64,000 bases of DNA, taken from the NCBI GenBank assembly GCA_031409275.1, contig JANNXA010000055.1, positions 144,163-208,162 of the forward strand, in the 5' to 3' direction. Of this stretch, positions 7,282-55,277 are shown piece by piece (within the stretch, counting starts at the first letter, position 1; each line of letters begins with the position of its first letter). The notes under the pieces are model-generated. The model did no database searches. It saw only the letters and a list, made by a program, of their open reading frames with translations, and was not told the DNA's origin. The DNA is from Planctomycetota bacterium (GTDB taxonomy: Bacteria > Planctomycetota > B15-G4 > SIAN01). Both the position numbers and the translations under genes were made by a program.

Positions 7282-7344
7282 GCCGATTCAGCGAATCTGC
7301 GCCCCGGGTCGCCGCGCGCGATCCGGGGCGCAGTCGTTTGATGG

Positions 7345-8355: not shown

Positions 8356-8393
8356 GGCAGCTCCAGTCGACGGCGAGTTCGGATGGACACTAG

Positions 8394-32712: not shown

Positions 32713-33684
32713 ATGGGCGTTCCGCACGGCATCGTGGTCCTCGACAAGCCGGCTGGCATCACCTCGCGCGACGCCGTCGACCATGCGTGCAAGCGCCTGA
32801 AGACCCGCGAGATCGGCCACTGCGGGACGCTCGACCCGCTTGCGACCGGAGTCCTCGTGCTGGTGATCGGTCGTGCTCGCCGCCTGCAGGAGCTGCTCGC
32901 CAAGTCGCGCAAGGTCTATGCGGCGCGCATCAAGCTCGGCGCCATCTCTGAAACCGACGATGCGGAGGGCCCCCTCACCGAGACGTCGCCACTGCCCCCG
33001 CCACCGACCCTCGATGCGGTGCTCGCCGGCGCCGCGCGCTTCGTCGGCGAGATCGAGCAGCGTCCGCCGCGCTATTCCGCGGTGAAGGTCGACGGCGAGC
33101 GCCTCTACGACCTCGCCCGCCGCGGACAGGGCATCGACGCGCCGATGCGCAAAGTCACCGTCTACGACCTGAAGGTCACGAACTACGACTACCCCTTCAT
33201 CGACCTCACGGTCGCGTCGGCGGGCGGCACCTACGTGCGCTCGATCGCGCGCGATCTTGGCGCGCTGCTCGGCACCGGCGGCTATCTCGCGCAACTCGCA
33301 CGCACCGAGTCCGGCGGCTTCCGCCAGTCGGAAGCGACGTCGCTCGAGCAACTCGGGCCCGAGCACGTGCTTCCGCTCGAGAATGCGTTGCGCCACTTCC
33401 CGCGGATCGACATCGCGGCGGCGCAGGCACTGCGACTCGGCAACGGCGCCGTCGTGCGCGCCGAGGTACCGCCCCTCTCGCTCGGCTCCGACGACACGCT
33501 GTTTGGCTGGGTGAACGGGCACGCCGTCGCGCTGCTGGCGAAGCAAGGCCCGCAGCGGGTGCGTTCGTCGCGGCTGCTGGTGACGATCCCGGAGCTGCAG
33601 CGACTCGCCGACGAGGAGCTCGCCGCGGCGCCGCAGCAGGCGAACCGCGAGCGCGCCAGCTACGACGACGACGAGCGGCGCTGA
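32713..33684 (+). CDS. truB: tRNA pseudouridine(55) synthase
   Basis: GIVVLDKPAGITS and GHCGTLDPLATGVL match the TruB catalytic Asp motif. The start is set at MGVPHG. Confidence 0.85.
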   Translation: MGVPHGIVVLDKPAGITSRDAVDHACKRLKTREIGHCGTLDPLATGVLVLVIGRARRLQELLAKSRKVYAARIKLGAISETDDAEGPLTETSPLPPPPTLDAVLAGAARFVGEIEQRPPRYSAVKVDGERLYDLARRGQGIDAPMRKVTVYDLKVTNYDYPFIDLTVASAGGTYVRSIARDLGALLGTGGYLAQLARTESGGFRQSEATSLEQLGPEHVLPLENALRHFPRIDIAAAQALRLGNGAVVRAEVPPLSLGSDDTLFGWVNGHAVALLAKQGPQRVRSSRLLVTIPELQRLADEELAAAPQQANRERASYDDDERR

Positions 33685-33705
33685 GAGCGCCGCCGCGACG
33701 ATCGC

Positions 33706-35640
33706 TCAGCGCGGCTGCAACCGCACCGGTTCGTCGTAGAGCGCACCGCCCTCGCCAGCGTCGGTGACCACCGCCCGAACCAGCAGGTTCGCGCAATCAC
33801 CGCTGCGTTGCTGGCCTCCTTTGGCCATGAAGGCCACGCTCGGATGAATGGCATCGTCGTGGCGAAGGGTGACCGCGAGCCGACCGATCACGCTCTCGAT
33901 CCACGCCGGCGCCCCATCGCGAAGACCCGCCGCCGCACTCGGATGGACGCGTACCTCCGCCGGCGATGGCGGCGTCTCCGACCACTGTGAAGACTGCGCC
34001 TTCGCTGTCGAGACGGCCAGAAGTCGTAGCGGGAAGTCGACGCTCGCAATCGCCGGTCGCTCCGGCGCCGACACCGGCAGGCGCGCGCGGCCGTCCGCCG
34101 TCGCGAAGCGATCACCGGCGAACCGAACCTGCGGCGCCAGCGGATTGCGTCGCGGCGCCTGCGTCAGTGCGGCCGCATCGATGCCATGAGGCGCGACCTT
34201 GCGCAGCAACCGTTCCTTCCACGCCGCGATCGAGGGGTCGAAACGGTCCCCGAGGCCGAGCCGTTCCGCCAACCCGTGCAGGAGGGTGATCTCGTGCACG
34301 ACGCCGGGGGGCGGCGCGAGTGCCGGCGTCGACGCCCGCAACCAGTGGTTCCCGTAGGCGCCAAGCAGATCCTCATCCTCGAGCAGCGTCGGGCACGGAA
34401 AGACGACGTGGGCGACATCGGTGGTGTCGGTCGGATGGGTATCGACGACCGCCACGAAGTCCGCGCGCTCGAAGCCGCGCCGCACGGACGCGGCATCGGG
34501 CAGCATGCTGAGCGGGTTGCCGGCCGTGACCCAGATCGCGCGTACGGGCGGCGTCGCTTCGAGCAGCTCGCGGCCAAGCAGCGGCTCGCACAACGTGCGG
34601 GGAGCAGCGGCCTCGCCGCGCACGAAGCTGGTGTCAAAGGCCGTGCGTCGCGCGAAGTAGTACGAACAGCCGCCGCCGCTCACTCCCATGTTGCCGCGCA
34701 CCGTTGCCAGCGCGTCGAGCGTGCGCACCACCGCAGCGCCGTTCACCCGGCGCGCCAGACCCCAGCCGACCAGGATCGCGGCCGGGAACTGCGCGGCGTA
34801 GAGATCGGCGAAGCGCTGCAAGTCCGCTTCGGGGACACCGGCGGCGTGCGCGCGCTCAGCAAGCGTGCTCTGCAACGCCAGCGCACGAAAGTGGGCCGCG
34901 CCTTCCGCGAAACGCTCCAGGTCGGACGCGATCGCGCCGCGCGCGAAGAGTTCACTCGCCACCGCCAGCGCCAGCTCGCCATCGCAGCCCGGTCGCGGCT
35001 GCAGGAAGAGGTCGCACAGCGACGCCAGTCGCGTCCGCACGCAGTCGATCCCGACGATCGTCGTGCCGCGCCGCTTCGCCTCGAGCAGCACCGGCAGGAG
35101 ATGCGAGCCTGAAACGTGGACGTTCTTGCCCCAGACCACGATCAGGCGGCTGTTCATCAGATCGAACAGGTCGTTCGAATCGGAGGCTCCGAAATCGAGC
35201 AGGTTGGCCGCTTCGCCTGCTCCCGAGCAGATGTCGCCGCGCTTCACGGTGACCGGCCCGAACTGCTCGAACAGGTAGTCGGCCGCCACCTTGAGCAGCC
35301 CCAGCGAGCCGCCGGAGCGGTAGTGGAAGATCGCTGCCGCTCCCGATTCCGCGCGAATCTTGAGCAGCTGCTCCGCCGCGAAGTCGAGCGCCGCCTCGAG
35401 GCTCGCCGAAACGAGCTTGCCGCCGCGGCGCACCTGCGGCGTGACGAAGCGATCGGGGGCGTACTGGCGCGCCAGGAACTTCGCCGTACGTTCGCAGAGG
35501 AAACCGCGGGTCACCGGATCGTCGGGGTCTCCGCTGAGCCGCACGGCCCGCTCGCCTTCCATCTCGACGACGATCGAACAGGCGTCGGGGCAGTCCCGAT
35601 TGCAGGCGGTCTTGCGGCGCGAGCGCGTCTTGCTGGCCAT
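33706..35640 (-). CDS. Molybdopterin-dependent oxidoreductase (molybdopterin bis-PGD, MopB, family)
   Basis: The N-terminal Cys cluster is CNRDCPDAC...C (4Fe-4S Mo-bisPGD domain). The length and middle/C-terminal regions match the MopB superfamily. Confidence 0.75.
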   Translation of the reverse strand: MASKTRSRRKTACNRDCPDACSIVVEMEGERAVRLSGDPDDPVTRGFLCERTAKFLARQYAPDRFVTPQVRRGGKLVSASLEAALDFAAEQLLKIRAESGAAAIFHYRSGGSLGLLKVAADYLFEQFGPVTVKRGDICSGAGEAANLLDFGASDSNDLFDLMNSRLIVVWGKNVHVSGSHLLPVLLEAKRRGTTIVGIDCVRTRLASLCDLFLQPRPGCDGELALAVASELFARGAIASDLERFAEGAAHFRALALQSTLAERAHAAGVPEADLQRFADLYAAQFPAAILVGWGLARRVNGAAVVRTLDALATVRGNMGVSGGGCSYYFARRTAFDTSFVRGEAAAPRTLCEPLLGRELLEATPPVRAIWVTAGNPLSMLPDAASVRRGFERADFVAVVDTHPTDTTDVAHVVFPCPTLLEDEDLLGAYGNHWLRASTPALAPPPGVVHEITLLHGLAERLGLGDRFDPSIAAWKERLLRKVAPHGIDAAALTQAPRRNPLAPQVRFAGDRFATADGRARLPVSAPERPAIASVDFPLRLLAVSTAKAQSSQWSETPPSPAEVRVHPSAAAGLRDGAPAWIESVIGRLAVTLRHDDAIHPSVAFMAKGGQQRSGDCANLLVRAVVTDAGEGGALYDEPVRLQPR

Positions 35641-35712: not shown

Positions 35713-36027
35713 ATGCCGGCCGACAAGATCGCGAAGTGGAAGCCGTTGGTCGAACAGCACCCCGACCACGAACTCGCGCGCTACAGCCTCGGCTGCGCCT
35801 ACTTCGAAGCCGGCCAGTTCGCCGACGCCGAGCCGCACTTCGCGCGCGCTCTCGAACTGCGCAACGACTGGGTCATGGCGTACATCTTCCGCGCCAAGTG
35901 CCTGATCCGGCTCGGGCGAGGCACCGAAGCGAAGCCGCTGCTGGCGCTCGGCCGTTCCCACTCGCAGGCGCAAGGGCATGACGCGCCGGTCGAGGAGATC
36001 GACGCGCTGCTCGAGATGCTGCCGTGA
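35713..36027 (+). CDS. Small TPR-repeat protein
   Basis: MPADKIAKWKPLVEQHPDHELARYSLGCAYFEAGQFADAEPHFARALEL contains a TPR motif. The track ORF 35116..36027 has an N-terminal shadow. The stop overlaps the next gene's start. Confidence 0.6.
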   Translation: MPADKIAKWKPLVEQHPDHELARYSLGCAYFEAGQFADAEPHFARALELRNDWVMAYIFRAKCLIRLGRGTEAKPLLALGRSHSQAQGHDAPVEEIDALLEMLP

Positions 36028-38348
36028 AACGAGACGCGGTGACGTCGCGACGACGAGTCGAAGCGATCGCGACCGTCGTTGTCTCGCTCGTCGCCACGGC
36101 GTCACTCGTTGCCGACGACGCCCCGTTGCCACGACGCTGGCTCGAACTCGAAGTTCCCGCCGCCGATGAGTCGCCGCTCGTGCCGATCGCGACCGAAGAG
36201 CTCGCCACGCTGCTTGCCACCCACGGCTACGCCGGCGTGCTCCTCGACTTTCCAAGCGGCACCGGCGCATTCGACGAATCATGGGCGCTCCCCTTTCGAA
36301 CGGCGGGCCTTGCGGTCCGCTCCACACGGCGCGCGACGCAGCGAATCGACGAACTCCCGCCGTGGCCGGCCATCGAGCCGCGACTGCTGCCCGGCGAAGG
36401 CGACGGCGACGATCCAGCGGCCGTGTGGTTGCGACCGCTGCTACGCCCGGCCGTCATCGACTGGCTCTGGCAGGCGCCGCCGGAAGCGACCGGAGGCGGC
36501 GATGGCTACCTCTCGTCGCGACTGCTGTTGCCGACGCGGCCGGAGCGACGCGCCGAGCAGATGCGACTCGATCTTGCGAGCTTCGCGCCGGTCCCGGCCG
36601 CACCGTCACCGCCCATCGACGCGCCGCTGTTGCGCCAGAGTGCCTTGGCGAGCGAACTGGCGGCGCTGCTCGGCGGGAATCACCCCGAGCTGATCGCGCC
36701 GCTCGAGAATCGCGCCAGCAACGCGTTGGACGCGCTGCGCTGGCGCCCGCTGCGCCGAGCGCCGGAGTGGCTCGAGGTCGATGAGTGGTTCGGCGCGTTC
36801 GGCAGCGATGGCGAGATGCTCGCCGCGCGGCTGCTGCGCGATCCCGCCCCGCCGGCGGCGCTCGCCGCGGCGCTATCCGCCGCACGCGACACACGCACGG
36901 AGTCGGGACAATCGTCACGCGCCGGGATCGTCGATGACGCCACGCGGACGTGGCTCGCCGACGCCATCGAGCAGCGCTGGCAGGCGACGGCGAAGCTGGC
37001 CGCGCTGCTGCGCGACCCGACGCTGCGCCTCGCGGAGGACGCCGTCGCAGCGGCGCCGCCGGCGACGATCACGGCTCCCGCTTGGCGCGACGGGATCGAG
37101 TACGAGTCGCGGCAGCGCGTCGCCGAGCGCTGGCAGCTCCATCCATGGCGGGTGCACACGCGCCGCTTCGCGCTCAGCAGCAAGACGCTGCGAGCCGGCG
37201 TCAGCGCGCCGCCGCTCGACGTCCTCGCGATCGACGACCCGCGTCTCGAGCGGTTCGTTCCGCAGCTGGCGGCCGCGCTGAAGACGACGCCGTGGGACCT
37301 CGCCGCCTGGCTGCCGGTGGTGCCCGGTGCGACGATCACGCTGCGGACCACCCTCGCGCTGCGCGATCCGCGGCAGTTCCGACTCGAACTCGACGCTGCG
37401 GCGACCTGCACCGTCCGCCTCAACGAAGCGCTGGTGATCGACCGTTTTTCCGCCGACCGCGACCACCTCCTCACGACGTTGGCGGTGCCGGCCGGGACGA
37501 GCGAGTTGAGCCTCGAGCTCGTCCTCGACGGCACCCGCGACACGCTCCAACTGGCGCTCGAGCTGCTTCCGCAGCGCGCTGGCGGACTTCTCCTTTCCGC
37601 GGCCAACGCATCGCAGGTCGTCGAGCCGATGGTGCGCCTGGGCGACGCCGGCGCGCTCGACGGCGCCAGCCTCGCGCTCCTCGCGGCGCGCCCGCAAGGC
37701 GGCGAAGGCAACGCCTTCTTTCCCTTCGCGCTCGACACGACCACGCTCTACGACGTGTGGCTCCACGCGCTCCCAATCGCCGGCGGCGGCGCGCTCGAAC
37801 TCGACTGCGATGGCAGCCCGCCGCTCAAGGTCGACCTCGCACCTGCGAGCGGTTGGCGGTGGCAGCGCGTCGCCGCGCCCTTCTGGCTGACCAACGGCTC
37901 GCACGCGCTGCGGCTGCGGCTGCTCACCGCTGGCGTGCGGCTCGATCAGATCGCCCTGGTCGCCAGCGAAACGCGCTTCCCGCGACTGCCAGCAGGAGAT
38001 CAGCCGCTTTGGAACAGCGCGTGGCGCTACGACCCGCTCGGCTCCGGCATCGTCGTCGATCTCCCGACACTCACCACCGGCGAGCTCTTCGGTCGCGCGT
38101 TCGAGGTCGAGAAGAGCGGTAACTACCAGCTCTACGCCTGGCTGAAGGGGAGCAGCCCGATGGCGCCAGGCCAACGCGCCGAGGTCGAGCTCACCTCCCC
38201 TTCGACGAGAGTGCGCCTGGTCCTGCCGGCCGGCACCCCGAGCGAAGAGTGGGTCGCGCTCGGCGACGTGGCGCTGACCGCCGGCGAGCGCGTCGAGCTG
38301 CGGGTCCGCGGTGACGGGGCACTGGCGCGCGTGGCATTGCGGCGCTGA
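36024..38348 (+). CDS. Hypothetical protein (774 aa)
   Basis: It is a long ORF with a hydrophobic N-terminus (IATVVVSLVATASLVA). Its start overlaps the TPR gene stop. I recognised no domain. Confidence 0.55.
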   Translation: MKRDAVTSRRRVEAIATVVVSLVATASLVADDAPLPRRWLELEVPAADESPLVPIATEELATLLATHGYAGVLLDFPSGTGAFDESWALPFRTAGLAVRSTRRATQRIDELPPWPAIEPRLLPGEGDGDDPAAVWLRPLLRPAVIDWLWQAPPEATGGGDGYLSSRLLLPTRPERRAEQMRLDLASFAPVPAAPSPPIDAPLLRQSALASELAALLGGNHPELIAPLENRASNALDALRWRPLRRAPEWLEVDEWFGAFGSDGEMLAARLLRDPAPPAALAAALSAARDTRTESGQSSRAGIVDDATRTWLADAIEQRWQATAKLAALLRDPTLRLAEDAVAAAPPATITAPAWRDGIEYESRQRVAERWQLHPWRVHTRRFALSSKTLRAGVSAPPLDVLAIDDPRLERFVPQLAAALKTTPWDLAAWLPVVPGATITLRTTLALRDPRQFRLELDAAATCTVRLNEALVIDRFSADRDHLLTTLAVPAGTSELSLELVLDGTRDTLQLALELLPQRAGGLLLSAANASQVVEPMVRLGDAGALDGASLALLAARPQGGEGNAFFPFALDTTTLYDVWLHALPIAGGGALELDCDGSPPLKVDLAPASGWRWQRVAAPFWLTNGSHALRLRLLTAGVRLDQIALVASETRFPRLPAGDQPLWNSAWRYDPLGSGIVVDLPTLTTGELFGRAFEVEKSGNYQLYAWLKGSSPMAPGQRAEVELTSPSTRVRLVLPAGTPSEEWVALGDVALTAGERVELRVRGDGALARVALRR

Positions 38349-48954: not shown

Positions 48955-49154
48955 GGTGCGTTCCCGGGGGGGCGGCGCCAGCGCGGCGCGGTCGTGCAGG
49001 CCGGACGGAGGGCACTCCCCCGGCGGAAAGGCGGAGCATTTAAGGTGCGGTCGCGCCGCCGATCAACCGTCGCGCGGCTCTCGCGGCTTCTCCGCGGGTG
49101 TCGGCCGACTTATCCTATCCGCCCTTCCCATCACGACTTCCAACCGACGTCACG

Positions 49155-50312
49155 ATGTCTACCGCGACCTCTTCCACTGCGCTCGCGCCGCTCCAGTCGA
49201 TCCTCGACCGGGTCGCGGCAGGCGTTCGCCTCGATCGCGACGACGGCCTCGCGCTGCTCGCTTGCGAGGACCTCTCGCTGCTCGGCGAACTCGCCACCTT
49301 GGTGCGCGACCGCAAGCGCCCCGAGCGGGTCGTCAGCTACATCGTCGATCGCAACATCAACCCGACCAACATCTGTGTCGCGCGCTGCTCGTTCTGCGCC
49401 TTCGACCGGCTGCCGGGCGACCCTGAGGGATACGTCCTCAGCCACGAGCAGATCTTCGCCAAGGTCGACGAGTTGCTCGCCGTGCCCGGCGTCGACGAGC
49501 GCCTGCTCGCCCGCGGCGGCGTGCAGGTGCTGCTCCAGGGCGGCCACCACCCGAAACTCGGGATCGAGTGGTACGAGGAGTTGTTCCGGGCGCTGCGCGC
49601 GCGCTACCCGAAGCTGCACGTGCACGGCCTCTCGCCCTCCGAGATCGTGCACGTCGCGAAGCTTTCGCACCTCGACGTCGCGACGGTCGTGCGCCGCCTC
49701 GCGGCCGCCGGCCTCGACAGCATTCCCGGCGGCGGCGGCGAGATCCTCGTCGATCGGGTCCGTCGCGCCATCGCGCCGGGCAAGGCGATGACCGACGAGT
49801 GGCTCGGCGTGATGCGCGAGGCGCATGCCCAGGGCATGAAGACGACGGCCACGATGATGTACGGCCACGTCGAAACGCACGCGGAGCGCATCGAGCACCT
49901 GTTGCGCCTGCGCGAACTGCAGCATGAATCGCTGGCGCGGCCCGCCGCGCCGGGTCGGCGCCAAGGGGCATTCACCGCCTTCATCTGCTGGCCGTTCCAG
50001 CCCGGCGGCAGCGAGCTCGAACTGCCGCGCAGCGGCGCCAACGAATTCCTGCGGATGAACGCCGTCGCCCGGCTGATGCTCGACAACTTCCCGCACCAGC
50101 AGACCTCGTTCGTCACGCAGGGCGACAAGCTCGGCCAGCTCGCGCTGTTCTTCGGCTGCGACGATTTCGGCGGCACGATGCTCGAAGAGAACGTCGTCTC
50201 GGCCGCCGGGACGCAGTGCCTCATCACCATCCAGCAGATCGAGCACTGCATCCGCGCCGCCGGCTTCGAACCGATCCGCCGCAACATGTACTACGAGAGG
50301 GTCGACGCATGA
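49155..50312 (+). CDS. mqnC: Radical-SAM enzyme of the futalosine pathway (MqnC/MqnE family). I tentatively call it cyclic dehypoxanthine futalosine synthase.
   Basis: NPTNICVARCSFCAF is a CxxxCxxC radical-SAM cluster of the MqnC/MqnE/CofH type. Whether this gene or its neighbour is MqnC or MqnE cannot be settled by eye. Confidence 0.65.
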   Translation: MSTATSSTALAPLQSILDRVAAGVRLDRDDGLALLACEDLSLLGELATLVRDRKRPERVVSYIVDRNINPTNICVARCSFCAFDRLPGDPEGYVLSHEQIFAKVDELLAVPGVDERLLARGGVQVLLQGGHHPKLGIEWYEELFRALRARYPKLHVHGLSPSEIVHVAKLSHLDVATVVRRLAAAGLDSIPGGGGEILVDRVRRAIAPGKAMTDEWLGVMREAHAQGMKTTATMMYGHVETHAERIEHLLRLRELQHESLARPAAPGRRQGAFTAFICWPFQPGGSELELPRSGANEFLRMNAVARLMLDNFPHQQTSFVTQGDKLGQLALFFGCDDFGGTMLEENVVSAAGTQCLITIQQIEHCIRAAGFEPIRRNMYYERVDA

Positions 50313-51481
50313 CGCCCGGCGCTCCCTCAGTCGCACCGGAGCTGGCGTCGACCACGCACGAGCTGCGCCTCGACGGTCGCGCGGCGCTGCTGCCCGGTGG
50401 CCACGACGCGCGGCTGCGCGCGATCGAGGAGTGCGTGCGCGGCGGTGGACGCCTGACGTTCGACGACGGCTTGTTCCTCATGCGGACGCCGGCGCTGCAC
50501 CGCGTCGGCCGGCTCGCCAATTGGGTGCGCGAGCAGAAGCACGGCGATCGCGCCTACTTCGTCGTCAACCGCCACCTGAACCCGACCAACTTCTGCGTCT
50601 ACGACTGCAAGTTCTGCGCGTTCTATCGGCGCGCCAACGACCCCAACGGCTACCGCATGGCGCTCGACGACGTGCGCCGCATGGTGCGCGACGAGTTCGA
50701 GCGCGAGCTCACCGAGGTCCACATCGTCGGCGGCATCGATCCGAAGCTGCCCTACTCGTACTTCATCGATCTGCTGCGCGTCATCAAGGAGGAGCGGCCC
50801 GACCTCCACCTGAAGGCGTGGACCATGATCGAGATCGAGTGGTTCGCGCGGATCTCGAAGAAGAGCATCGAAGAGGTCATCGACGACCTGCTGGCGGTGG
50901 GGCTTGGCTCCTGCCCCGGTGGCGGCGTCGAGGTGCTCTCCGATCGCGTCCACGCCGAGATCTTTCCCGACAAGCTCTCGCCCACGCAATGGCTCGACAC
51001 CGCGCGCCGGGTCCAGGAGCACGGCGTCCGCATGAACGCGACAATGCTCTATGGGCACATCGAGACCGACGAAGAGCTCGTCTCCCACATGGTGCAGGTG
51101 CGCGAGCTGCAGGACGCGACGCACGGCTTCATGACCTTCATCCCGCTGGCGTTCCACCCGGCGCACACCGAGCTTGCCCACCTGCCGGGCCCGACCGGCC
51201 TGCTCGACCTGCGCACGATCGCCGTGTCGCGCCTGATGCTCGACAACGTCGAGCACATCAAGACCTACTGGATCATGCAGGGCATCGGCGTGGCGCAGGT
51301 CGCGCTGCGTTACGGCGCCGACGACATCGATGGCACCGTCGTCGAGGAGAAGATCACCCACGACGCCGGCGCCACCACCCCATTCGGAGTGACCCGCACC
51401 GAGTTGATCCGCTTGATCCGCGAAGCCGGTCGCACGCCCTTCCAACGCGACACGACCTACTCCCGCGCGGCACCCGTGTGA
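50309..51481 (+). CDS. mqnE: Radical-SAM enzyme of the futalosine pathway (MqnC/MqnE family). I tentatively call it aminofutalosine synthase because it sits next to mqnA.
   Basis: NPTNFCVYDCKFCAF is present. The start overlaps the previous gene's stop (ATGA). It is a paralog of the previous gene. Confidence 0.65.
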   Translation: MTPGAPSVAPELASTTHELRLDGRAALLPGGHDARLRAIEECVRGGGRLTFDDGLFLMRTPALHRVGRLANWVREQKHGDRAYFVVNRHLNPTNFCVYDCKFCAFYRRANDPNGYRMALDDVRRMVRDEFERELTEVHIVGGIDPKLPYSYFIDLLRVIKEERPDLHLKAWTMIEIEWFARISKKSIEEVIDDLLAVGLGSCPGGGVEVLSDRVHAEIFPDKLSPTQWLDTARRVQEHGVRMNATMLYGHIETDEELVSHMVQVRELQDATHGFMTFIPLAFHPAHTELAHLPGPTGLLDLRTIAVSRLMLDNVEHIKTYWIMQGIGVAQVALRYGADDIDGTVVEEKITHDAGATTPFGVTRTELIRLIREAGRTPFQRDTTYSRAAPV

Positions 51482-51489
51482 GCCTGAAG

Positions 51490-52293
51490 ATGCAGAAGAT
51501 CCGCATCGGAGTCGTGGATTTCGTCAACGCTCGGCCGCTGGTGCACGGGCTCGATCGCGAACGCGGCGTCGAGCTGGTGCGCGGCCGCCCGGCCCAGCTC
51601 CAGCAAGCGCTGCGCAAGGGCGATCTCGACGTCGCCTTGATCTCCTCGATCGAGGCGTTCCGCGCGCCCGAACTGAAGATCCTGCCCGAGATCGCGATCT
51701 GCTCGGAAGGTCCGGTGAAGAGCGTGAAGCTCTTCCTGAAGAAGCCGCTCGATCAAGTGGAGAAGGTCGCGCTCGACGCGGGCAGCCGCACCGGCGCGGC
51801 GCTCGTGAAGATGGTCTTCGCCGAGTTCCTGCTGAAGCCCGGCGTCGTGTCGGTCGAAGTCGAGCCCACCCTCGATCCGTCGAAGGTCGACGCCGACGCC
51901 GTGCTGCTGATCGGCGACGCGGCGCTGAAGGCGAAACCCTGCGCGCTCGAACCGCTCGACCTCGGCTGGTTCTGGACCGACCGCACCGGCATGCCCTTCG
52001 TCTACGCGGTGTGGGCCTGCAAGAAGCCCAAGGCGTTCGATGCCGCGCTGCCGCTGCTGATGCGCGCACGCGACCGCGGCCTGCTCGAGCGATCGAAGAT
52101 CGCCGCCGTCGCCGCCGAAGAACTGCAGCTCCCGGTCGCCGGCCTCACGCAGTACCTGACGCGCAACCTGCGCTACCACCTCGGCGAGCGCGAGATCAAG
52201 GGACTCGAGCGCTTCCGCGACATCGGCGTGACGCACGGACTGTGCAACCTGCACGACGTCCCCTTCGCCACGGTGCGCCTCCAGGCCACCTGA
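51490..52293 (+). CDS. mqnA: Chorismate dehydratase (futalosine pathway, MqnA-like)
   Basis: MQKIRIGVVDFVNARPLVHGL matches the MqnA N-terminus. It is 267 aa and is adjacent to the rSAM Mqn genes. Confidence 0.7.
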   Translation: MQKIRIGVVDFVNARPLVHGLDRERGVELVRGRPAQLQQALRKGDLDVALISSIEAFRAPELKILPEIAICSEGPVKSVKLFLKKPLDQVEKVALDAGSRTGAALVKMVFAEFLLKPGVVSVEVEPTLDPSKVDADAVLLIGDAALKAKPCALEPLDLGWFWTDRTGMPFVYAVWACKKPKAFDAALPLLMRARDRGLLERSKIAAVAAEELQLPVAGLTQYLTRNLRYHLGEREIKGLERFRDIGVTHGLCNLHDVPFATVRLQAT

Positions 52294-52414
52294 ACGCGGC
52301 ACGCGGAACAGCGCGCCGCTATCATCCTGCGCCACATCGCGCGCGCGGCCTCTTGGCGGGGGTCGGGCGCGCCGCGCCGAAACGGGCGCCACGCGACAGC
52401 AGGGAGGGGATTCG

Positions 52415-54115
52415 ATGACCGACAAGGTCGCCGAGCAGCACGGCCTTTTTCAATCGAACGACGCGACGCCCGCCGGCAAGCGCAAGTCGGCGCGCACCGA
52501 GGCGCCCGCTCCGGCTGCGGCGCCGCTCGAGCGCAGTGATGGTGGCGGGGCCGGCGGCGACACCGTCGCGCACCGCCTCGCGACCAAGCAGCGCGAGATC
52601 TCCGTCTCGGAGTTCTTCACCAAGAACCGCCACCTGCTCGGCTTCGACAACCCGCGGAAGGCGCTCCTCACGGCCATCAAGGAGGCGGTCGACAACTCGC
52701 TCGACGCCTGCGAGGAAGCGGGGATCCTGCCCGACGTGAAGATCGAGATCCTGCCGACCGCGCGCGAGGATCGCTTCCGCGTCGTGGTCGAGGACAACGG
52801 CCCGGGCATCGTGAAGCAGCAGCTCCCCCACGTCTTCGCGCGGCTCCTCTACGGCTCGAAGTTCCACGTGCTGAAGCAGCAGCGCGGACAGCAGGGCATC
52901 GGCATCAGCGCCGCCGCGATGTACGGCCAGCTCACGACGGGCAAGCCGCTGTCGGTCATCTCGCGCATCGGCAAGTCGCACCCGGCGAACTACGTCGAGC
53001 TCAAGATCGACACCGCGCGCAACAAGCCGGAAGTGCTGCGCGAGATGGAGACGGACTGGGACAAGGAGCACGGCACGCGCATCGAGCTCGAGCTCGAAGC
53101 GAAGGTGCAGAAGGGCAAGCAGTCGGTCGACGAGTACCTGCTGCAGACGGCCATCGCGAACCCCCACGTGCGCCTCGAATACAAGGACTGGGAAGGGGTC
53201 GTCGTCGTGCACGAGCGCGCGACGCAGACGCTGCCGCCGCAGCCCAAGCAGATCCAGCCGCATCCCTACGGCGTCGAGGTCGGGATGCTCGGCGGAATGA
53301 TGAAAACGACCGAGACGAAGAAGCTCGCCGCCTTCCTGAAGAGCGACTTCTCGCGCGTCAGCGCGCGCGTCGCCGAGGAGATCTGCGAGAAGGCGAGGGT
53401 CTCGCCCGATGCGCGACTCACCGGACTCGAGCCCGAGCAGATCGAGCGGGTCCATCAGGCGATGAGCGAGGTGAAGATCCTCGCGCCCGCCACCGACTGC
53501 ATCGTGCCGATCGGCGATGCCGGGCTGATCGCCGGCATGAAGAAGGTGATCAAGGCCGACCTCTACCTCGCCGAGACGCGCACGCCGAAGATCTACCGCG
53601 GCAACCCGTTCGTCGTCGAGGTGGGCGTCGCCTATGGCGGCGAGCTGCCGGCCGAGGAACCGGTGCGCGTGGTGCGCTTCGCCAATCGCGTCCCGCTGCT
53701 CTACCAACAGGGTGCGTGCGTCTCGACCAAGGCGATCATCTCGACCGACTGGCGCGGCTACATGCTGCAGCAGCCCAAGGAGTCGCTGCCGGTCGCGCCG
53801 ATGGTGATCGTCGTCCACCTCGCGTCGGCCTGGGTGCCGTTCACTTCGGAAGCGAAGGAGGCGGTCGCGCACTACCCCGAGATCCTGAAGGAGATGCGCC
53901 TCTCCTTGATGGAGATGGGCCGCAAGATCGCGACCCACATCCGCAAGACGCGCCACGCCGCCGACGAGGCGAAGAAGCGCGACTACATCGACATGTTCCT
54001 CCCGACCGTCGTCGACGCCCTGAACGAGATCCTCACGCTCGATCAGCCGACCCTCGACAAGACCTCCGGCAACCTGCGCGACATCCTCGAAGCGTCGCGC
54101 AAGAAGATGACGTAG
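52415..54115 (+). CDS. top6B: DNA topoisomerase VI subunit B (GHKL ATPase)
   Basis: Bergerat-fold motifs are the N-box EAVDNSLDA, G1 DNGPGI, and G2 GQQGIGIS. The EFFTKNRHLLGFDNPRKALLTAIKE signature is present. It is 566 aa with an AGGAGG SD. Confidence 0.85.
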   Translation: MTDKVAEQHGLFQSNDATPAGKRKSARTEAPAPAAAPLERSDGGGAGGDTVAHRLATKQREISVSEFFTKNRHLLGFDNPRKALLTAIKEAVDNSLDACEEAGILPDVKIEILPTAREDRFRVVVEDNGPGIVKQQLPHVFARLLYGSKFHVLKQQRGQQGIGISAAAMYGQLTTGKPLSVISRIGKSHPANYVELKIDTARNKPEVLREMETDWDKEHGTRIELELEAKVQKGKQSVDEYLLQTAIANPHVRLEYKDWEGVVVVHERATQTLPPQPKQIQPHPYGVEVGMLGGMMKTTETKKLAAFLKSDFSRVSARVAEEICEKARVSPDARLTGLEPEQIERVHQAMSEVKILAPATDCIVPIGDAGLIAGMKKVIKADLYLAETRTPKIYRGNPFVVEVGVAYGGELPAEEPVRVVRFANRVPLLYQQGACVSTKAIISTDWRGYMLQQPKESLPVAPMVIVVHLASAWVPFTSEAKEAVAHYPEILKEMRLSLMEMGRKIATHIRKTRHAADEAKKRDYIDMFLPTVVDALNEILTLDQPTLDKTSGNLRDILEASRKKMT

Positions 54116-54125
54116 GAGCCGCCCG

Positions 54126-55277
54126 ATGGCGAAGGACGACAAGAAGAGCCGCAAGCACGCGAGCGCCAACCCGGAGCTCGACAAGGTCACCGTCAAGTGC
54201 ATCGATCGCGCGGCGACGCGCGTGCTCGACTCGATCACGAAGAAGAAGCAGCCGGAACTCAAGTTCCCGGTCCGCTCGCTCTCCAACGTCGACTACGACG
54301 TGAAGAAGGGCTTCTTCGAGCTCGGCGAGAACCTCTCGACGCGCACGCTCACCGTCAATTCGGTGAAGACCTTTGCGCAGACGCTGAAGCTGATGTCGCT
54401 CAGCAAGCAGATGGTGCTGGAGAACAACTCCGCCACCAAGCGAGAGGCGTACTACGTCAGCAAGAACTGGAAGGACGCTCGTTTCGACGAGCAGACCGAG
54501 TCGGACACCGTGATGGACGACGTCGAGGCGATGTTCAGCCTCGATGGCGTCACCCGCGAGCAGCTGCGCTTCGTCCCGGACGAGCACGGCGGTGCGGTGG
54601 CGGGCGAGCTGATCGTCATCGACCGCGACCCCAACTCGCACGAGCCGATCGAGATCGACTGCACCAAGTTCGGCACCGGCGCCTACACGATCCCCTCGTC
54701 CGTCGAGCACCTGAAGTTCCGCACCAACGCCAAGTTCGTGCTCGCCATCGAGACGGGCGGCATGTTCCAGCGCCTGCAGAGCAACGGCTACCCGAAGGAT
54801 GCCCACTGCATCATCGTCTCGATGGCCGGCGTGCCGACGCGCTCGACGCGCCGCTTCCTGCGCCGCCTCACCGATGACCTCGACCTCCCCGTCTACGCCT
54901 TCGTCGACTGCGACCCCTACGGCATCGCCAACATCTACCGCACCTTGAAGGTCGGCTCCGGCAACGCCGCGCACATCAACCAGTTCTTCTGCGTTCCGCG
55001 CGCGCGCTTCCTCGGCGTCACGCCGCAGGACATCCTCGACTTCAAGCTGCAGGACGCCACCCACCCGCTGCAGGAGGTCGACGAGAAGCGCGCCAAGGAT
55101 GCGCTGAAGAACGACCCCTTCTTCAAGAAGAACAAGGCGTGGGTGCGCGCCTTCGAGCAGATGCTCTCGATGAAGGTCCGCGCCGAGCAGCAGGCGCTGA
55201 CCAAGTGGGGACTCAATTACGTCATCGACGAGTACCTGCCGCGCAAGCTGAAGAGCCCGGGCACGTTCCTGCCGTAG
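54126..55277 (+). CDS. top6A: DNA topoisomerase VI subunit A (Spo11/Top6A, winged-helix plus Toprim)
   Basis: REAYYVS is the region around the catalytic Tyr. The Toprim acidic motif is VDCDPYGIANIY. It is 383 aa and lies directly downstream of top6B. Confidence 0.85.
   Translation: MAKDDKKSRKHASANPELDKVTVKCIDRAATRVLDSITKKKQPELKFPVRSLSNVDYDVKKGFFELGENLSTRTLTVNSVKTFAQTLKLMSLSKQMVLENNSATKREAYYVSKNWKDARFDEQTESDTVMDDVEAMFSLDGVTREQLRFVPDEHGGAVAGELIVIDRDPNSHEPIEIDCTKFGTGAYTIPSSVEHLKFRTNAKFVLAIETGGMFQRLQSNGYPKDAHCIIVSMAGVPTRSTRRFLRRLTDDLDLPVYAFVDCDPYGIANIYRTLKVGSGNAAHINQFFCVPRARFLGVTPQDILDFKLQDATHPLQEVDEKRAKDALKNDPFFKKNKAWVRAFEQMLSMKVRAEQQALTKWGLNYVIDEYLPRKLKSPGTFLP

What the first reader, a model, noticed from the sequence alone, without database searches (positions are those of the whole stretch)
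52415..55277. Bacterial topoisomerase VI (B then A subunit) next to the futalosine menaquinone genes
Top6B (Bergerat-fold N-box, G1 and G2 motifs) and Top6A (catalytic-Tyr region plus Toprim DxD) are unmistakable. The genes are separated by 10 nt, with B upstream of A. Topo VI is an archaeal/eukaryotic enzyme found only sporadically in bacteria. The proteins are noticeably Lys-rich compared with their neighbours, which suggests foreign origin. No gyrase or topo IV gene is visible here to say whether Topo VI supplements or replaces a type IIA enzyme.
Basis: partly seen in the sequence, partly recalled or inferred. Interest (0 to 1): 0.6.

Follow-up and report, generated by a model that had tools for sequence, protein, structure and literature searches.

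The report
Planctomycete topoisomerase VI, tailed B subunit
These two genes encode an intact archaeal-type DNA topoisomerase VI in a planctomycete bacterium, an already published situation, but the B subunit also carries a conserved, apparently undescribed short tail motif that resembles the peptide bacterial proteins use to bind the replication sliding clamp.

Summary
top6B (52415-54115, 566 aa) and top6A (54126-55277, 383 aa) lie in tandem, 10 nt apart, downstream of mqnC-mqnE-mqnA. All ATPase, switch-lysine, catalytic-Tyr and Toprim residues are intact. The contig is bacterial, and its closest relatives are Planctomycetota MAGs (Top6A 96%).

The interpretation needs correction on two points:
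- **Novelty.** Topo VI in Planctomycetota is published (Allen & Maxwell 2024). Relatives occur in at least 541 stretches of GTDB species genomes.
- **Foreign origin.** Lys-richness is real, but it is a conserved family trait. GC3 is the highest in the window, 75 of 76 Lys codons are AAG, and codon usage and synteny look native. The archaeal origin is ancient: the bacterial clade has 100% bootstrap and groups with DPANN and then Methanococcales.

The most likely role is an A2B2 ATP-dependent decatenase and relaxase working beside gyrase, probably in place of topo IV (inferred).

One feature I found described in none of the papers I searched: bacterial Top6B has a disordered N-terminal tail. It begins with a conserved [Q/T]xxLF peptide (window QHGLF, residues 8-12). 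LF occurs in 42 of 46 loci against 3.8 expected. The peptide matches the β-clamp-binding consensus QxxLF, so a replisome tether is a testable hypothesis.

As given, the finding is a new member of a known kind.

The parts
52415..54115 (+). top6B: Topo VI B subunit, 566 aa. It comprises a disordered N-terminal tail (residues 1-47), a GHKL/Bergerat ATPase, an H2TH domain, and a transducer (about residues 358-521) followed by a long C-terminal helix. There is no Ig-like C-terminal domain.
   Evidence: AF2 model: mean pLDDT 82.9. Foldseek top hits are M. mazei and S. shibatae Topo VI-B. Motifs E90/N94, D127NGPG, G158QQGIG and K481. The alignment to M. mazei ends at chain residue 504 of 621, so that protein's C-terminal domain is absent here.
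52402..52409 (+). Shine-Dalgarno-like GGGAGGGG, 5 nt upstream of the top6B ATG
   Evidence: Read directly from the sequence.
52415..52555 (+). Sequence encoding the Top6B N-terminal tail (residues 1-47). It is low-complexity (Ala/Pro/Gly/Lys/Arg-rich), predicted disordered, and absent from the archaeal Top6B proteins compared.
   Evidence: pLDDT is below 50 with no secondary structure for residues 1-47. M. mazei and S. shibatae alignments begin at window residues 51 and 60. A Nanoarchaeota Top6B starts at the core, and a Woesearchaeota one carries 15 extra residues. Tail length and sequence are hypervariable among relatives.
52436..52450 (+). Conserved short linear motif Q8-H-G-L-F12 (CAG CAC GGC CTT TTT). 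It matches the bacterial β-sliding-clamp-binding consensus QxxLF. It is a candidate clamp tether, which is inferred and not shown.
   Evidence: LF is present in 42 of 46 in-frame upstream regions against 3.8 +/- 1.8 in shuffles. Q..LF is present in 19 of 46 against 0.1. In the 19 regions with strict Q..LF, the Q lies 3-20 aa (18 of 19 within 3-10) after the nearest upstream start codon. Position and sequence are conserved in the window's clade, P0391-P0399. The consensus is quoted from PMC12309361.
54116..54125 (+). 10-nt top6B-top6A spacer. An AGGAG ribosome-binding site at 54114-54118 overlaps the top6B stop codon.
   Evidence: read from the sequence.
54126..55277 (+). top6A: Topo VI A subunit, 383 aa. 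It has a 5Y-CAP domain with R106 and catalytic Y110 (nt 54453-54455), and a Toprim domain with E209 (nt 54750-54752) and D261-x-D263 (nt 54906-54914). The T2BI box is R352-x-E354-x-x-A357.
   Evidence: The Tyr, Glu and Asp residues align with M. jannaschii Y103, E197, D249 and D251.
49098..50312 (+). mqnC (cyclic dehypoxanthinyl futalosine synthase), first gene of the co-directional block
   Evidence: TIGR03699 scores 434.2 bits against a cutoff of 428.1. Radical_SAM and CofH_C domains.
50309..51481 (+). mqnE (aminofutalosine synthase). The probable ATG at 50309 overlaps the mqnC stop by 4 nt; the longest ORF starts at 50216.
   Evidence: TIGR03700 scores 457.7 bits against a cutoff of 434.55. 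ORF listing. The start-codon choice is inferred.
51478..52293 (+). mqnA (chorismate dehydratase). It overlaps the mqnE stop and lies 121 nt upstream of top6B. This adjacency is conserved in many Planctomycetota.
   Evidence: Pfam VitK2_biosynth, 4e-50. PDB chorismate dehydratases 6o9a and 7ahr, 1e-27 to 1e-30. An mqnA-like gene lies directly upstream of top6B in 18 of 34 Planctomycetota-labelled loci, and in none of the 6 Acidobacteriota, 'Deltaproteobacteria' and Gammaproteobacteria loci.

Best explanation
The two genes encode a functional type IIB topoisomerase, Topo VI, of a Planctomycetota bacterium.

**Mechanism, by homology with the solved archaeal enzymes.**
- Two Top6A and two Top6B subunits form an A2B2 complex.
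- ATP binding dimerises the Top6B GHKL domains and captures one DNA duplex.
- The transducer, with switch Lys481, signals to the Top6A dimer.
- Tyr110 and the Toprim Mg2+ site (E209, D261, D263) cleave a second duplex so that the first can pass through.
- The outcome is relaxation of supercoils and, above all, decatenation.

**History.** The genes derive from an ancient archaeal-to-bacterial transfer from a DPANN/Methanococcales-like Topo VI lineage. They are now native, vertically inherited core genes.

**Cellular role (inferred).** The enzyme works alongside gyrase as the main decatenase and relaxer of positive supercoils. This is the role topo IV fills in other bacteria.

**Tail (a further, less certain inference).** The bacterial Top6B N-terminal tail consists of a QxxLF peptide on a basic disordered linker. 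It may tether the enzyme to the β sliding clamp and DNA behind the replication fork.

**Transcription (inferred).** The genes are probably co-transcribed with, or just downstream of, mqnC-mqnE-mqnA.
For: **Identity and intact catalytic machinery**
- Family and PDB matches.
- AF2 model and Foldseek hits to M. mazei and S. shibatae Topo VI-B.
- In a 60-sequence Top6B alignment, E90, N94, D127, G129, G131, G158, G161, G163 and K481 are invariant.

**Bacterial host, native status**
- Planctomycetota MAGs are the nearest relatives: Top6A 96% and 94%, and 88% DNA identity over 8.9 kb with L001.
- The whole block mqnC-mqnE-mqnA-top6B-top6A (with GlyRS upstream where the flank reaches it) is syntenic in L001-L004 and L006. 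L005 holds only top6BA and the downstream genes on a short contig. Top6A identity equals or exceeds that of housekeeping neighbours.
- GC3 and codon usage are native.
- No bacterial plasmid in PLSDB carries a homologue; the only hits are haloarchaeal replicons at 35%. There is no defence-system match beyond a weak Toprim similarity to JetD.

**Ancient archaeal origin**
- In an NJ tree of 38 Top6A sequences, the 19 bacterial sequences form one clade with 100% bootstrap.
- That clade groups with DPANN at 99%, then with Methanococcales at 96%, to the exclusion of M. mazei and S. shibatae.
- This agrees with Allen & Maxwell 2024.

**Role replacing topo IV**
- The same paper reports gyrase in all 17 topo VI-carrying bacterial families.
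- It reports no ParC/ParE outside Pseudomonadota and Terrabacteria.
- It mentions unpublished complementation of an E. coli parE(ts) mutant by M. mazei topo VI.

**Tail and motif**. The CBM consensus QL[S/D]LF / QxxLF, and the xxxLF variants of DnaE3, are quoted from PMC12309361.
Against: - No biochemical or genetic data exist for this protein or for any bacterial Topo VI that I could find.
- The genome of the source organism could not be searched, so the presence of gyrase and the absence of ParC/ParE rest on a published survey of other Planctomycetota.
- Some bacteria carry topo VI together with topo IV, so replacement is not a rule.
- About a third of the related loci have top6A without top6B nearby. 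Linkage, and perhaps subunit stoichiometry, is therefore not universal.
- For the clamp idea:
  - Only about 45% of motif copies have Gln at position 1; Thr, Gly or Ala replace it in the rest.
  - Gly at position 3 weakens clamp binding in model systems.
  - DPANN Top6B also carries an N-terminal Q[TK][TK]L peptide. The motif may therefore be older than the transfer and bind something else.
  - No interaction was tested.
- No promoter or terminator pattern was found to define the transcription unit.
Confidence: 0.85

Rival explanations
1. The genes are a recently acquired foreign island, or the stretch is archaeal contamination or a chimeric assembly, so they say little about the host's biology.
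For: Both proteins are unusually Lys-rich for the window. Local GC is slightly lower, 0.66-0.68 against about 0.70. The closest solved structures are archaeal.
Against: GC3 is 0.94 and 0.96, the highest in the window. 75 of 76 Lys codons are AAG. Codon-usage distance is typical for the window. The lower GC comes from codon positions 1 and 2, that is, from amino-acid composition. The same block with the same bacterial neighbours recurs in five independent Planctomycetota MAGs (L001-L004, L006), and L005 shares top6BA and the downstream genes on a short contig; Top6A divergence tracks or lags behind housekeeping divergence. No tRNA, integrase or plasmid link lies nearby. The lysines sit at conserved family positions.
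Confidence: 0.03
2. The pair is not a housekeeping topoisomerase but a Topo VI-like double-strand-break or nuclease module. Examples would be a Spo11/Top6BL-like, Topo VIII/Mini-A-like or Wadjet JetD-like system serving defence, recombination or a mobile element.
For: Top6A gives weak PADLOC hits to JetD through the shared Toprim domain (1e-6). Type IIB relatives on mobile elements exist in bacteria, including Planctomycetes (PMC7671362).
Against: There are two separate subunits. Top6A has the full-length N-terminal 5Y-CAP part that contacts Top6B, which Topo VIII and Mini-A lack according to PMC7671362. The T2BI box is of the Topo VI type (RAEQQA), not RVELNAM or WELDAL. The G2 box is a complete GxxGxG and the switch Lys is intact. 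Full-length equivalog-level matches go to Topo VI. The context is chromosomal and syntenic, with no mobile-element genes and no plasmid homologues.
Confidence: 0.04
3. It is a functional Topo VI, but accessory and redundant. The host also has topo IV, and Topo VI serves a specialised task, for example a task linked to the neighbouring menaquinone genes or to polyploidy, rather than general decatenation.
For: [quoted passage not shown] The mqnA-top6B adjacency is conserved across distant Planctomycetota in 18 of 34 loci, which hints at co-regulation of unknown meaning. The source genome could not be checked.
Against: In the published survey, the triple-topoisomerase genomes are confined to Pseudomonadota and Terrabacteria, and all five Planctomycetota families lack ParC/ParE. 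Conservation is very strong: Top6A is at least as conserved as GlyRS, which fits an essential role. No biochemical link between chorismate dehydratase and DNA topology is known.
Confidence: 0.1
4. The conserved N-terminal [Q/T]xxLF peptide of Top6B is not a β-clamp-binding motif. It may bind another partner (SMC/ScpAB, FtsK, a nucleoid protein, or Top6A/B itself), or it may be a degradation or regulatory signal. The basic linker may simply add DNA affinity.
For: Gln at position 1 is present in only 20 of 43 motif copies. Acidic residues follow the motif, which is not part of the CBM consensus. DPANN archaeal Top6B carries a related N-terminal Q[TK][TK]L, although archaea have PCNA and not β. 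In E. coli, topo IV is recruited by MukB and SeqA rather than by the clamp (PMC11253446).
Against: The QxxLF consensus is matched exactly in the window and in 19 of 46 loci. Recognised clamp binders of the DnaE3 class show xxxLF with a variable first residue and Gly at position 3. The placement, at a terminus on a disordered linker, is typical of clamp-binding motifs. PIP boxes and CBMs share the QxxL core, so an archaeal QxxL precursor is compatible with sliding-clamp binding in both domains. Both Topo VI subunits co-purified with PCNA, RFC and NucS in P. abyssi.
Confidence: 0.5

Closest known systems
Archaeal Topo VI (M. mazei holoenzyme 2Q2E/9O0G; S. shibatae 2ZBK; M. jannaschii Top6A 1D3Y)
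   Same: The two-subunit architecture is the same. All domains are present: GHKL, H2TH, transducer, 5Y-CAP and Toprim. Every catalytic residue is conserved. Sequence matches are 1e-151 for Top6B and 1e-100 for Top6A. The predicted Top6B fold matches at Foldseek E = 1e-57.
   Different: The host is a bacterium. Top6B lacks the Ig-like C-terminal domain of M. mazei. It adds a disordered 47-residue N-terminal tail with a QxxLF peptide. The M. mazei KGRR loop reads KGKQ here, and the WKxY motif reads WRGY, as read from the alignment.
Published bacterial Topo VI of Planctomycetota (Pirellulaceae, Lacipirellulaceae, Thermoguttaceae, Anaerohalosphaeraceae, Sedimentisphaeraceae; Allen & Maxwell 2024, PMC11302465)
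   Same: The phylum is the same. The tree position matches: a bacterial cluster beside Methanococcales and DPANN. The Ig-like C-terminal domain is absent. The expected genomic setting is gyrase present and topo IV absent.
   Different: The window belongs to an uncultured clade: 96% Top6A identity to a Planctomycetota MAG, but only 67-72% to the other genome hits (64% for the Gammaproteobacteria MAGs). The paper mentions neither the N-terminal tail and motif nor the mqnA adjacency.
Bacterial topo IV (ParC2ParE2)
   Same: The inferred cellular job is the same: ATP-dependent decatenation and relaxation of positive supercoils behind and ahead of the replication fork. Both have GHKL ATPase and Toprim modules.
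   Different: Topo IV is a type IIA enzyme with a different domain order, a 4-nt stagger and three gates. It is not homologous in the DNA-gate winged-helix arrangement. In E. coli it is recruited through MukB and SeqA.
Topo VIII and Mini-A (type IIB relatives on plasmids and phages; PMC7671362)
   Same: They share the 5Y-CAP and Toprim cleavage core, and in Topo VIII the Bergerat ATPase as well. They occur in bacteria, including Planctomycetes.
   Different: Topo VIII is a single polypeptide, lacks the N-terminal part of 5Y-CAP, has an RVELNAM T2BI box, and sits on mobile elements. Mini-A has no B partner. None of this holds for the window genes.
β-clamp-binding motif proteins (Pol III α, PolC QLSLF, B. 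subtilis DnaE QMGLF, Hda QLSLPL and others)
   Same: The window's QHGLF fits the QxxLF consensus at the critical positions 1, 4 and 5. It lies at a terminus on a flexible linker. The xxxLF variants seen in relatives parallel those of DnaE3 polymerases.
   Different: No topoisomerase is an established clamp client in the literature I could search. Binding is untested, and many homologues have Thr, Gly or Ala in place of Gln.

Membership tests
Topo VI (type IIB topoisomerase), B subunit | Bergerat/GHKL ATP-binding fold with N-box (Glu general base, Asn-Mg2+), G1 box (DxGxG) and G2 box (GxxGxG) | tested here: met
   E90, N94, D127-NGPG and G158-QQGIG are present. They align with S. shibatae E38 and N42 and are invariant in 60 homologues. 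Pfam HATPase_c.
Topo VI (type IIB topoisomerase), B subunit | H2TH domain between the GHKL domain and the transducer | tested here: met
   The alignment to M. mazei Top6B residues 5-504 is continuous and essentially gap-free. The AF2 model covers residues 282-357 with high pLDDT, and Foldseek aligns about 500 columns to 2q2e_B and 2zbk_B.
Topo VI (type IIB topoisomerase), B subunit | Transducer domain with the switch lysine that contacts the ATP γ-phosphate | tested here: met
   Pfam Topo-VIb_trans, 4.7e-57, residues 358-521. K481 in the SEAKE context aligns with S. shibatae K427 and is invariant.
Topo VI (type IIB topoisomerase), A subunit | 5Y-CAP/winged-helix domain with the catalytic Tyr preceded by a conserved Arg (RxxYY), including the N-terminal part that binds Top6B | tested here: met
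   R106-EAY-Y110 aligns with M. jannaschii R99 and Y103. Residues 29-80 align with the N-terminal region of M. mazei Top6A. Pfam TP6A_N.
Topo VI (type IIB topoisomerase), A subunit | Toprim domain with the acidic Mg2+ ligands (Glu and DxD), and a Topo VI-type T2BI box (R/K)xExx(A/S) | tested here: met
   E209, D261-C-D263 and R352-A-E354-Q-Q-A357 are present. Pfam TOP6A-Spo11_Toprim, 1.4e-57.
Topo VI (type IIB topoisomerase) | A2B2 heterotetramer that performs ATP-dependent duplex strand passage with 2-nt staggered cleavage | not testable with these tools
   This needs purified protein. It is inferred from full-length homology and from the tandem, translationally close genes.
Bacterial Topo VI clade (Allen & Maxwell 2024) | Branches within a bacterial cluster next to Methanococcales and DPANN archaeal Topo VI | tested here: met
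   NJ tree with 200 bootstraps: bacterial clade 100%, plus DPANN 99%, plus Methanococcales 96%.
Bacterial Topo VI clade (Allen & Maxwell 2024) | Host genome has GyrA/GyrB and, outside Pseudomonadota and Terrabacteria, lacks ParC/ParE | not testable with these tools
   Only a 64-kb window is available, and it holds no type IIA topoisomerase. Whole genomes of relatives could not be scanned.
Topo VIII / Mini-A | Fused B-A polypeptide (Topo VIII) or stand-alone short A (Mini-A); no N-terminal 5Y-CAP part; RVELNAM or WELDAL T2BI box; encoded on a mobile element | tested here: not met
   The window has separate 566-aa and 383-aa subunits, a full 5Y-CAP and an RAEQQA T2BI box. There is no plasmid homologue and there are no mobile-element genes nearby.
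β-sliding-clamp-binding motif (CBM) | Pentapeptide QL[S/D]LF or QxxLF, with positions 1, 4 and 5 critical, in an exposed flexible segment | tested here: met
   The window carries Q8-H-G-L-F12 within a tail of pLDDT below 50. The motif is conserved across phyla and occurs far more often than in shuffles. The consensus is quoted from PMC12309361. In 23 of 43 homologues position 1 is not Gln.
β-sliding-clamp-binding motif (CBM) | Physical binding to the hydrophobic pocket of DnaN | not testable with these tools
   No complex prediction or binding assay was available.

The most novel reading that the evidence does not exclude
[quoted passage not shown] The tail ends in a β-clamp-binding peptide ([Q/T]xxLF; QHGLF in this window). 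The peptide would couple the imported decatenase to the bacterial replisome, which would make Topo VI the first type II topoisomerase recruited directly by the sliding clamp. The related N-terminal QxxL peptides in DPANN-type and haloarchaeal-type Top6B would then be the PCNA-binding counterpart.
Probability: 0.35. Interest if true: 0.7.

Novelty: new member of a known kind. Interest (0 to 1): 0.35.

Why it matters
As originally stated, the finding adds one more uncultured planctomycete to a documented list of bacteria that use an archaeal-type topoisomerase VI. It supports the view that in this phylum Topo VI is a stable, vertically inherited core enzyme, probably standing in for topo IV, and not a recent import.

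The added value is the conserved tail on the B subunit. If the [Q/T]xxLF peptide binds the β clamp, it would show how a horizontally acquired DNA-topology enzyme was wired into a foreign replisome. [quoted passage not shown] That matters as well for any attempt to target bacterial Topo VI selectively.

The recurrent mqnA-top6B adjacency is an unexplained piece of conserved gene order that may mark a shared transcription unit.

Tried and rejected
- **Exact-sequence look-up of the window Top6A** found no recorded contig, so the source assembly itself could not be identified.
- **Promoter and terminator scan of 48.8-55.6 kb** found no σ70-like promoter and no plus-strand terminator between mqnA and top6B or after top6A. 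The operon structure therefore stays inferred.
- **Plasmid search** found only haloarchaeal megaplasmids at 35% identity. The mobile-element reading was rejected.
- **PADLOC scan** gave only weak JetD Toprim similarity. The defence-system reading was rejected.
- **NCBIfam** gave no family for the mqnA-like gene. It was resolved through PDB chorismate dehydratases.
- **The first tree script timed out** and was rewritten with a custom distance. The tree is NJ only, because no ML program was available.
- **Strict Q..LF covers only 19 of 46 loci**. I considered that the motif might be an artefact of choosing upstream start codons. I rejected this because the shuffle test uses the whole stop-to-core frame, and because independent gene calls place the motif at residues 8-12 in the window's clade.
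- **N-terminal GHKL strap.** I considered that the tail motif might be the strap involved in dimerisation. I rejected this because it is separated from the core by a hypervariable, disordered linker of 19-75 aa (median 41).
- **Literature searches** for Topo VI with 'clamp-binding motif', and for topo IV with DnaN, found no prior report.
- **A genome-wide gyrA/gyrB/parC/parE check** could not be done.

Full report
**1.

The ORF list contains 52415-54115 (+), 566 aa, and 54126-55277 (+), 383 aa. These are exactly the coordinates given. The spacer is 10 nt (54116-54125). An AGGAG overlaps the first gene's stop codon, and GGGAGGGG lies 5 nt upstream of the first ATG.

The first protein is a Topo VI B subunit:
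- It passes the NCBIfam equivalog PRK04184 (686 bits against a cutoff of 274) and TIGR01052.
- It hits Pfam Topo-VIb_trans and HATPase_c.

The second protein is a Topo VI A subunit:
- It hits Pfam TOP6A-Spo11_Toprim (1.4e-57), Topo_VI_alpha and TP6A_N.

Against solved structures:
- Top6B matches M. mazei Top6B at 1e-151 over residues 51-550.
- Top6A matches M. jannaschii Top6A at 1e-100.

All catalytic residues are intact (numbered through the alignments):
- **Top6B:** E90 and N94 (S. shibatae E38, N42), G1 D127-NGPG, G2 G158-QQGIG, and switch Lys K481 (S. shibatae K427).
- **Top6A:** R106 and Y110 (M. jannaschii R99, Y103), E209 (E197), D261 and D263 (D249, D251), and a Topo VI-type T2BI box, R352-AEQQ-A357.
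- These positions are invariant in a 60-sequence Top6B alignment.

An AlphaFold2 model of Top6B has a mean pLDDT of 82.9. Its best Foldseek hits are M. mazei and S. shibatae Topo VI-B (1e-57 to 1e-38). GyrB, MutL and Hsp90 appear only as distant GHKL relatives. The protein ends 16 residues after the point aligned to M. mazei residue 504 of 621. It therefore lacks that enzyme's Ig-like C-terminal domain, as reported for all bacterial Top6B.

**2. Context**

The upstream genes on the same strand are:
- mqnC (TIGR03699, 434 bits against a cutoff of 428);
- mqnE (TIGR03700, 458 against 435);
- mqnA, a chorismate dehydratase (PDB 6o9a and 7ahr, 1e-27 to 1e-30).

The junctions between them overlap by 4 nt. 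mqnA ends 121 nt upstream of top6B. A convergent CE2/GDSL esterase gene ends 23 nt after top6A. No σ70-like promoter or plus-strand terminator pattern was found in this stretch, so co-transcription is plausible but not shown.

The window is bacterial:
- It encodes a TonB-dependent receptor, RecG, a GlmU-like enzyme and a hybrid histidine kinase.
- The closest genomes are Planctomycetota MAGs. Top6A is 96% identical in JAEUIC010000036 and 94% in Baikal-deep-G175.
- DNA identity to L001 is 88% over 8.9 kb.

No type IIA topoisomerase lies in the window. Pfam scans of the large ORFs found none, and no conserved GyrA/B or ParC/E motif occurs in any frame. That says nothing about the rest of the genome.

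**3. Foreign or native?**

Lys is 7.4% and 8.9% against a window median of 2.4%. The inference drawn from it is not supported:
- GC3 is 0.94 and 0.96, the highest values in the window.
- 75 of 76 Lys codons are AAG.
- Distance in synonymous codon usage from the rest of the window ranks 11th and 19th of 42 genes.
- 22 of 34 Top6A lysines are conserved as Lys in at least half of the other bacterial homologues. 18 of 34 are conserved in at least half of the archaeal ones.
- The block mqnC-mqnE-mqnA-top6B-top6A, with GlyRS upstream where the flank reaches it, is syntenic in L001-L004 and L006. L005 holds only top6BA and the downstream genes on a short contig.
- Across L001-L006, Top6A identity falls 96, 93, 89, 86, 82, 74%, the same as or above GlyRS and MqnE.
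- No bacterial plasmid in PLSDB carries a homologue, and no tRNA or integrase flanks the genes.

The genes therefore behave as native, vertically inherited core genes.

**4. Origin**

I built a bootstrapped NJ tree of 38 Top6A sequences (357 columns, 200 replicates). It contains:
- the window;
- 18 bacteria from Planctomycetota, Acidobacteriota, Gammaproteobacteria and 'Deltaproteobacteria' MAGs;
- Methanococcales;
- DPANN;
- M. mazei and S. shibatae.

The results are:
- All bacterial sequences fall in one clade (100%).
- That clade joins Woesearchaeota and Nanoarchaeota (99%).
- The combined group joins Methanococcales (96%).
- M. mazei and S. shibatae lie outside.

Within the bacterial clade, the phylum labels are interleaved. 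The Gammaproteobacteria MAGs, for example, sit inside a Planctomycetia group (93%), which points to secondary transfers between bacteria.

This reproduces the published picture. Allen & Maxwell 2024 (PMC11302465) describe bacterial clusters beside Methanococcales and DPANN, at least two primary transfers, and later secondary ones.

**5. What is already known**

- In 2009 only three bacteria with Topo VI were known (PMC2647321).
- The 2024 survey lists 17 bacterial families, five of them Planctomycetota: Pirellulaceae, Lacipirellulaceae, Thermoguttaceae, Anaerohalosphaeraceae and Sedimentisphaeraceae.
- It reports gyrase in every one of these families and ParC/ParE only in Pseudomonadota and Terrabacteria.
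- It proposes that Topo VI supplies the specialised decatenase where topo IV is missing.
- It cites unpublished complementation of E. coli parE(ts) by M. mazei topo VI.

My scans show the distribution is broader than 'sporadic':
- The protein searches saturated at 8000 clusters.
- The exhaustive representative search gave 3165 clusters at 50% identity, archaea included.

The finding as stated is thus a new member of a known kind.

**6. Most likely mechanism and role**

By homology (shown), the enzyme is an A2B2 ATP-dependent strand-passage enzyme. By inference from the survey and from the very strong conservation, it is the cell's main decatenase and relaxer of positive supercoils, working beside gyrase. 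I put about 0.85 on 'functional Topo VI' and about 0.6 on 'replaces topo IV in this organism'. The second figure is lower because the genome could not be inspected.

**7. A feature described in none of the papers I searched**

Bacterial Top6B proteins carry an N-terminal extension. In the window it spans residues 1-47, with pLDDT below 50 and no secondary structure. The archaeal proteins compared lack it:
- M. mazei and S. shibatae alignments start at window residues 51 and 60.
- A Nanoarchaeota Top6B starts at the core, and a Woesearchaeota one has 15 extra residues.

I analysed 46 usable loci from the genome scan, taking the whole in-frame region between the upstream stop codon and the conserved core:

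| Pattern | Observed | Shuffled (1000 shuffles) |
|---|---|---|
| LF dipeptide | 42 of 46 | 3.8 +/- 1.8 (maximum 10) |
| Strict Q..LF | 19 of 46 | 0.1 |

Other properties of the tail:
- **Position profile (43 copies):** [Q20/T11/G6/A4]-[P/A/R]-[T20/G12/S5]-L-F-[D19/G8]-[D/E]-[E/D].
- **Location:** in the 19 regions with strict Q..LF, the Q lies 3-20 aa after the nearest upstream start codon, 18 of 19 within 3-10.
- **Linker:** 19-75 aa (median 41) between the LF and the core. It is 95% Ala/Pro/Gly/Ser/Thr/Lys/Arg/Glu/Asp and net positive in 39 of 43 cases.
- **Window's own clade:** independent gene calls all read M-x3-[V/G/S]-A-[E/G/A]-Q-x-[G/A]-L-F at residues 1-12, followed by completely different linkers of about 45-84 aa.
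- **Spread:** the motif spans Planctomycetota, Acidobacteriota (QKRLF, QRSLF, QMSLSF) and 'Deltaproteobacteria' (QGDLF). One Gammaproteobacteria locus (L076) lacks both tail and motif; the other (L052) has only a doubtful RPHLF that probably lies upstream of its start codon.
- **More distant clusters** show QLSLLD, QASLFAD, RQLFAG and QLVLVE. They also show hexapeptide-like EQQSFGF, EQQEIFAF and GQLGFQF.

This is the signature of a functional short linear motif on a flexible tether.

The motif fits the bacterial β-clamp-binding consensus, according to PMC12309361:
- The consensus is QL[S/D]LF, 'or more generally QxxLF', with positions 1, 4 and 5 critical.
- DnaE3 polymerases show xxxLF with a variable first residue and frequent Gly at position 3.
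- B. subtilis DnaE carries QMGLF.

I therefore propose, as an inference only, that the tail tethers Topo VI to the β clamp and to DNA behind the fork.

Caveats:
- Only about 45% of copies have Gln at position 1.
- Gly at position 3 weakens binding in model systems.
- DPANN Top6B also has a short N-terminal Q[TK][TK]L peptide (16 of 29 sequences). Haloarchaeal-type representatives begin with FQSTLG[D/E].
- The QxxL core may therefore predate the transfer. That fits clamp binding in both domains, because PIP boxes share the QxxL core. It fits an unrelated partner equally well.
- The only supporting hint in the literature is that both Topo VI subunits co-purified with PCNA, RFC and NucS in P. abyssi (PMC4929162).
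- Searches for Topo VI with 'clamp-binding motif', and for topo IV with DnaN, found no prior report. The 2024 survey does not mention the extension.

**8. Other patterns in related loci**

- An mqnA-like gene lies directly upstream of top6B in 18 of 34 Planctomycetota-labelled loci, even where MqnA identity is only 33-43%. It is found in none of the 6 Acidobacteriota, 'Deltaproteobacteria' and Gammaproteobacteria loci. I cannot explain this beyond inherited or co-transcribed gene order.
- Of 80 loci, 42 have the B-A tandem, 10 have B nearby but not adjacent, and 17 have no top6B within at least 3 kb on both sides. The 'invariable tandem' described for archaea therefore does not hold in bacteria. 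It does not hold in Methanocaldococcus either.

**9. Verdict**

The finding is real and correctly named. It is not new as a kind, and the 'foreign' reading of its composition is wrong for recent time. Its modest extra interest comes from the conserved clamp-motif-like tail and the recurrent mqnA linkage. Both are testable.

Noticed in passing
window 51478-52293 with 52415-54115; loci L008, L013, L016, L028, L036, L037, L042, L050, L053, L054, L057, L059, L060, L065, L073: An mqnA-like (chorismate dehydratase) gene lies directly upstream of top6B in 18 of 34 Planctomycetota-labelled loci, although MqnA identity is only 33-43%. It is found in none of the 6 Acidobacteriota, 'Deltaproteobacteria' and Gammaproteobacteria loci. 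This conserved gene order has no obvious functional rationale.
   Followed up: partly
loci L009, L044, L070, L077 (Acidobacteria bacterium Mor1), L079 and others: 17 of 80 related loci carry top6A with no top6B within at least 3 kb on either side, and 10 more have top6B 0.5-5.5 kb away. The subunit genes are therefore often unlinked in bacteria. In Methanocaldococcus lauensis (L083), top6A is also not next to top6B.
   Followed up: partly
proteins P0437-P0505 (DPANN Top6B); representatives P0279, P0285, P0287, P0288, P0297, P0370: DPANN Top6B proteins begin with a conserved Q[TK][TK]L peptide (MAQTKLAE, MTQTTLSP and similar) on a short Lys/Glu-rich tail. Long (about 800 aa), probably haloarchaeal, Top6B representatives begin with FQSTLG[D/E]. 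These may be PIP-like PCNA-binding peptides, and I found no description of them.
   Followed up: partly
representatives P0241, P0242, P0246, P0257, P0263 and others; P0448: Many Top6B representatives are 1000 aa or longer. Their match to the window protein is split near residues 144-165, in and just upstream of the G2 box. P0448 carries Pfam PF14890 (intein splicing). These are probably intein-containing Top6B genes.
   Followed up: no
loci L052, L076 (Gammaproteobacteria MAGs): The gammaproteobacterial Topo VI lacks a convincing Top6B N-terminal tail and motif: L076 has none, and L052 has only a doubtful RPHLF that probably lies upstream of the real start. L076 Top6A has shifted from Lys to Arg (2.9% Lys and 9.1% Arg, against 8.9% and 6.3% in the window). 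According to the literature, Pseudomonadota also keep topo IV.
   Followed up: no
proteins P0030, P0064, P0017 (bacterial Top6A): Several bacterial Top6A proteins carry long Lys-rich N-terminal tails (for example MAKKKKKTTGKKAPQKKKVLRKKK). The window's Top6A has only a short one (MAKDDKKSRKH). These may be additional basic DNA-binding tails.
   Followed up: no
window 36024-38348 (+) and window 7281-10896: A 774-aa ORF with coding-like GC3 has no Pfam match. A 3.6-kb stretch with GC of about 0.72 has no confident gene call under my GC3/GC2 filter.
   Followed up: no
window 33624-33715 (-): ARAGORN calls a 92-nt tRNA-Glu(CTC) with the anticodon at position 31. The length is unusual, and the call overlaps the ends of two predicted ORFs, so it may be a false or atypical call.
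   Followed up: no
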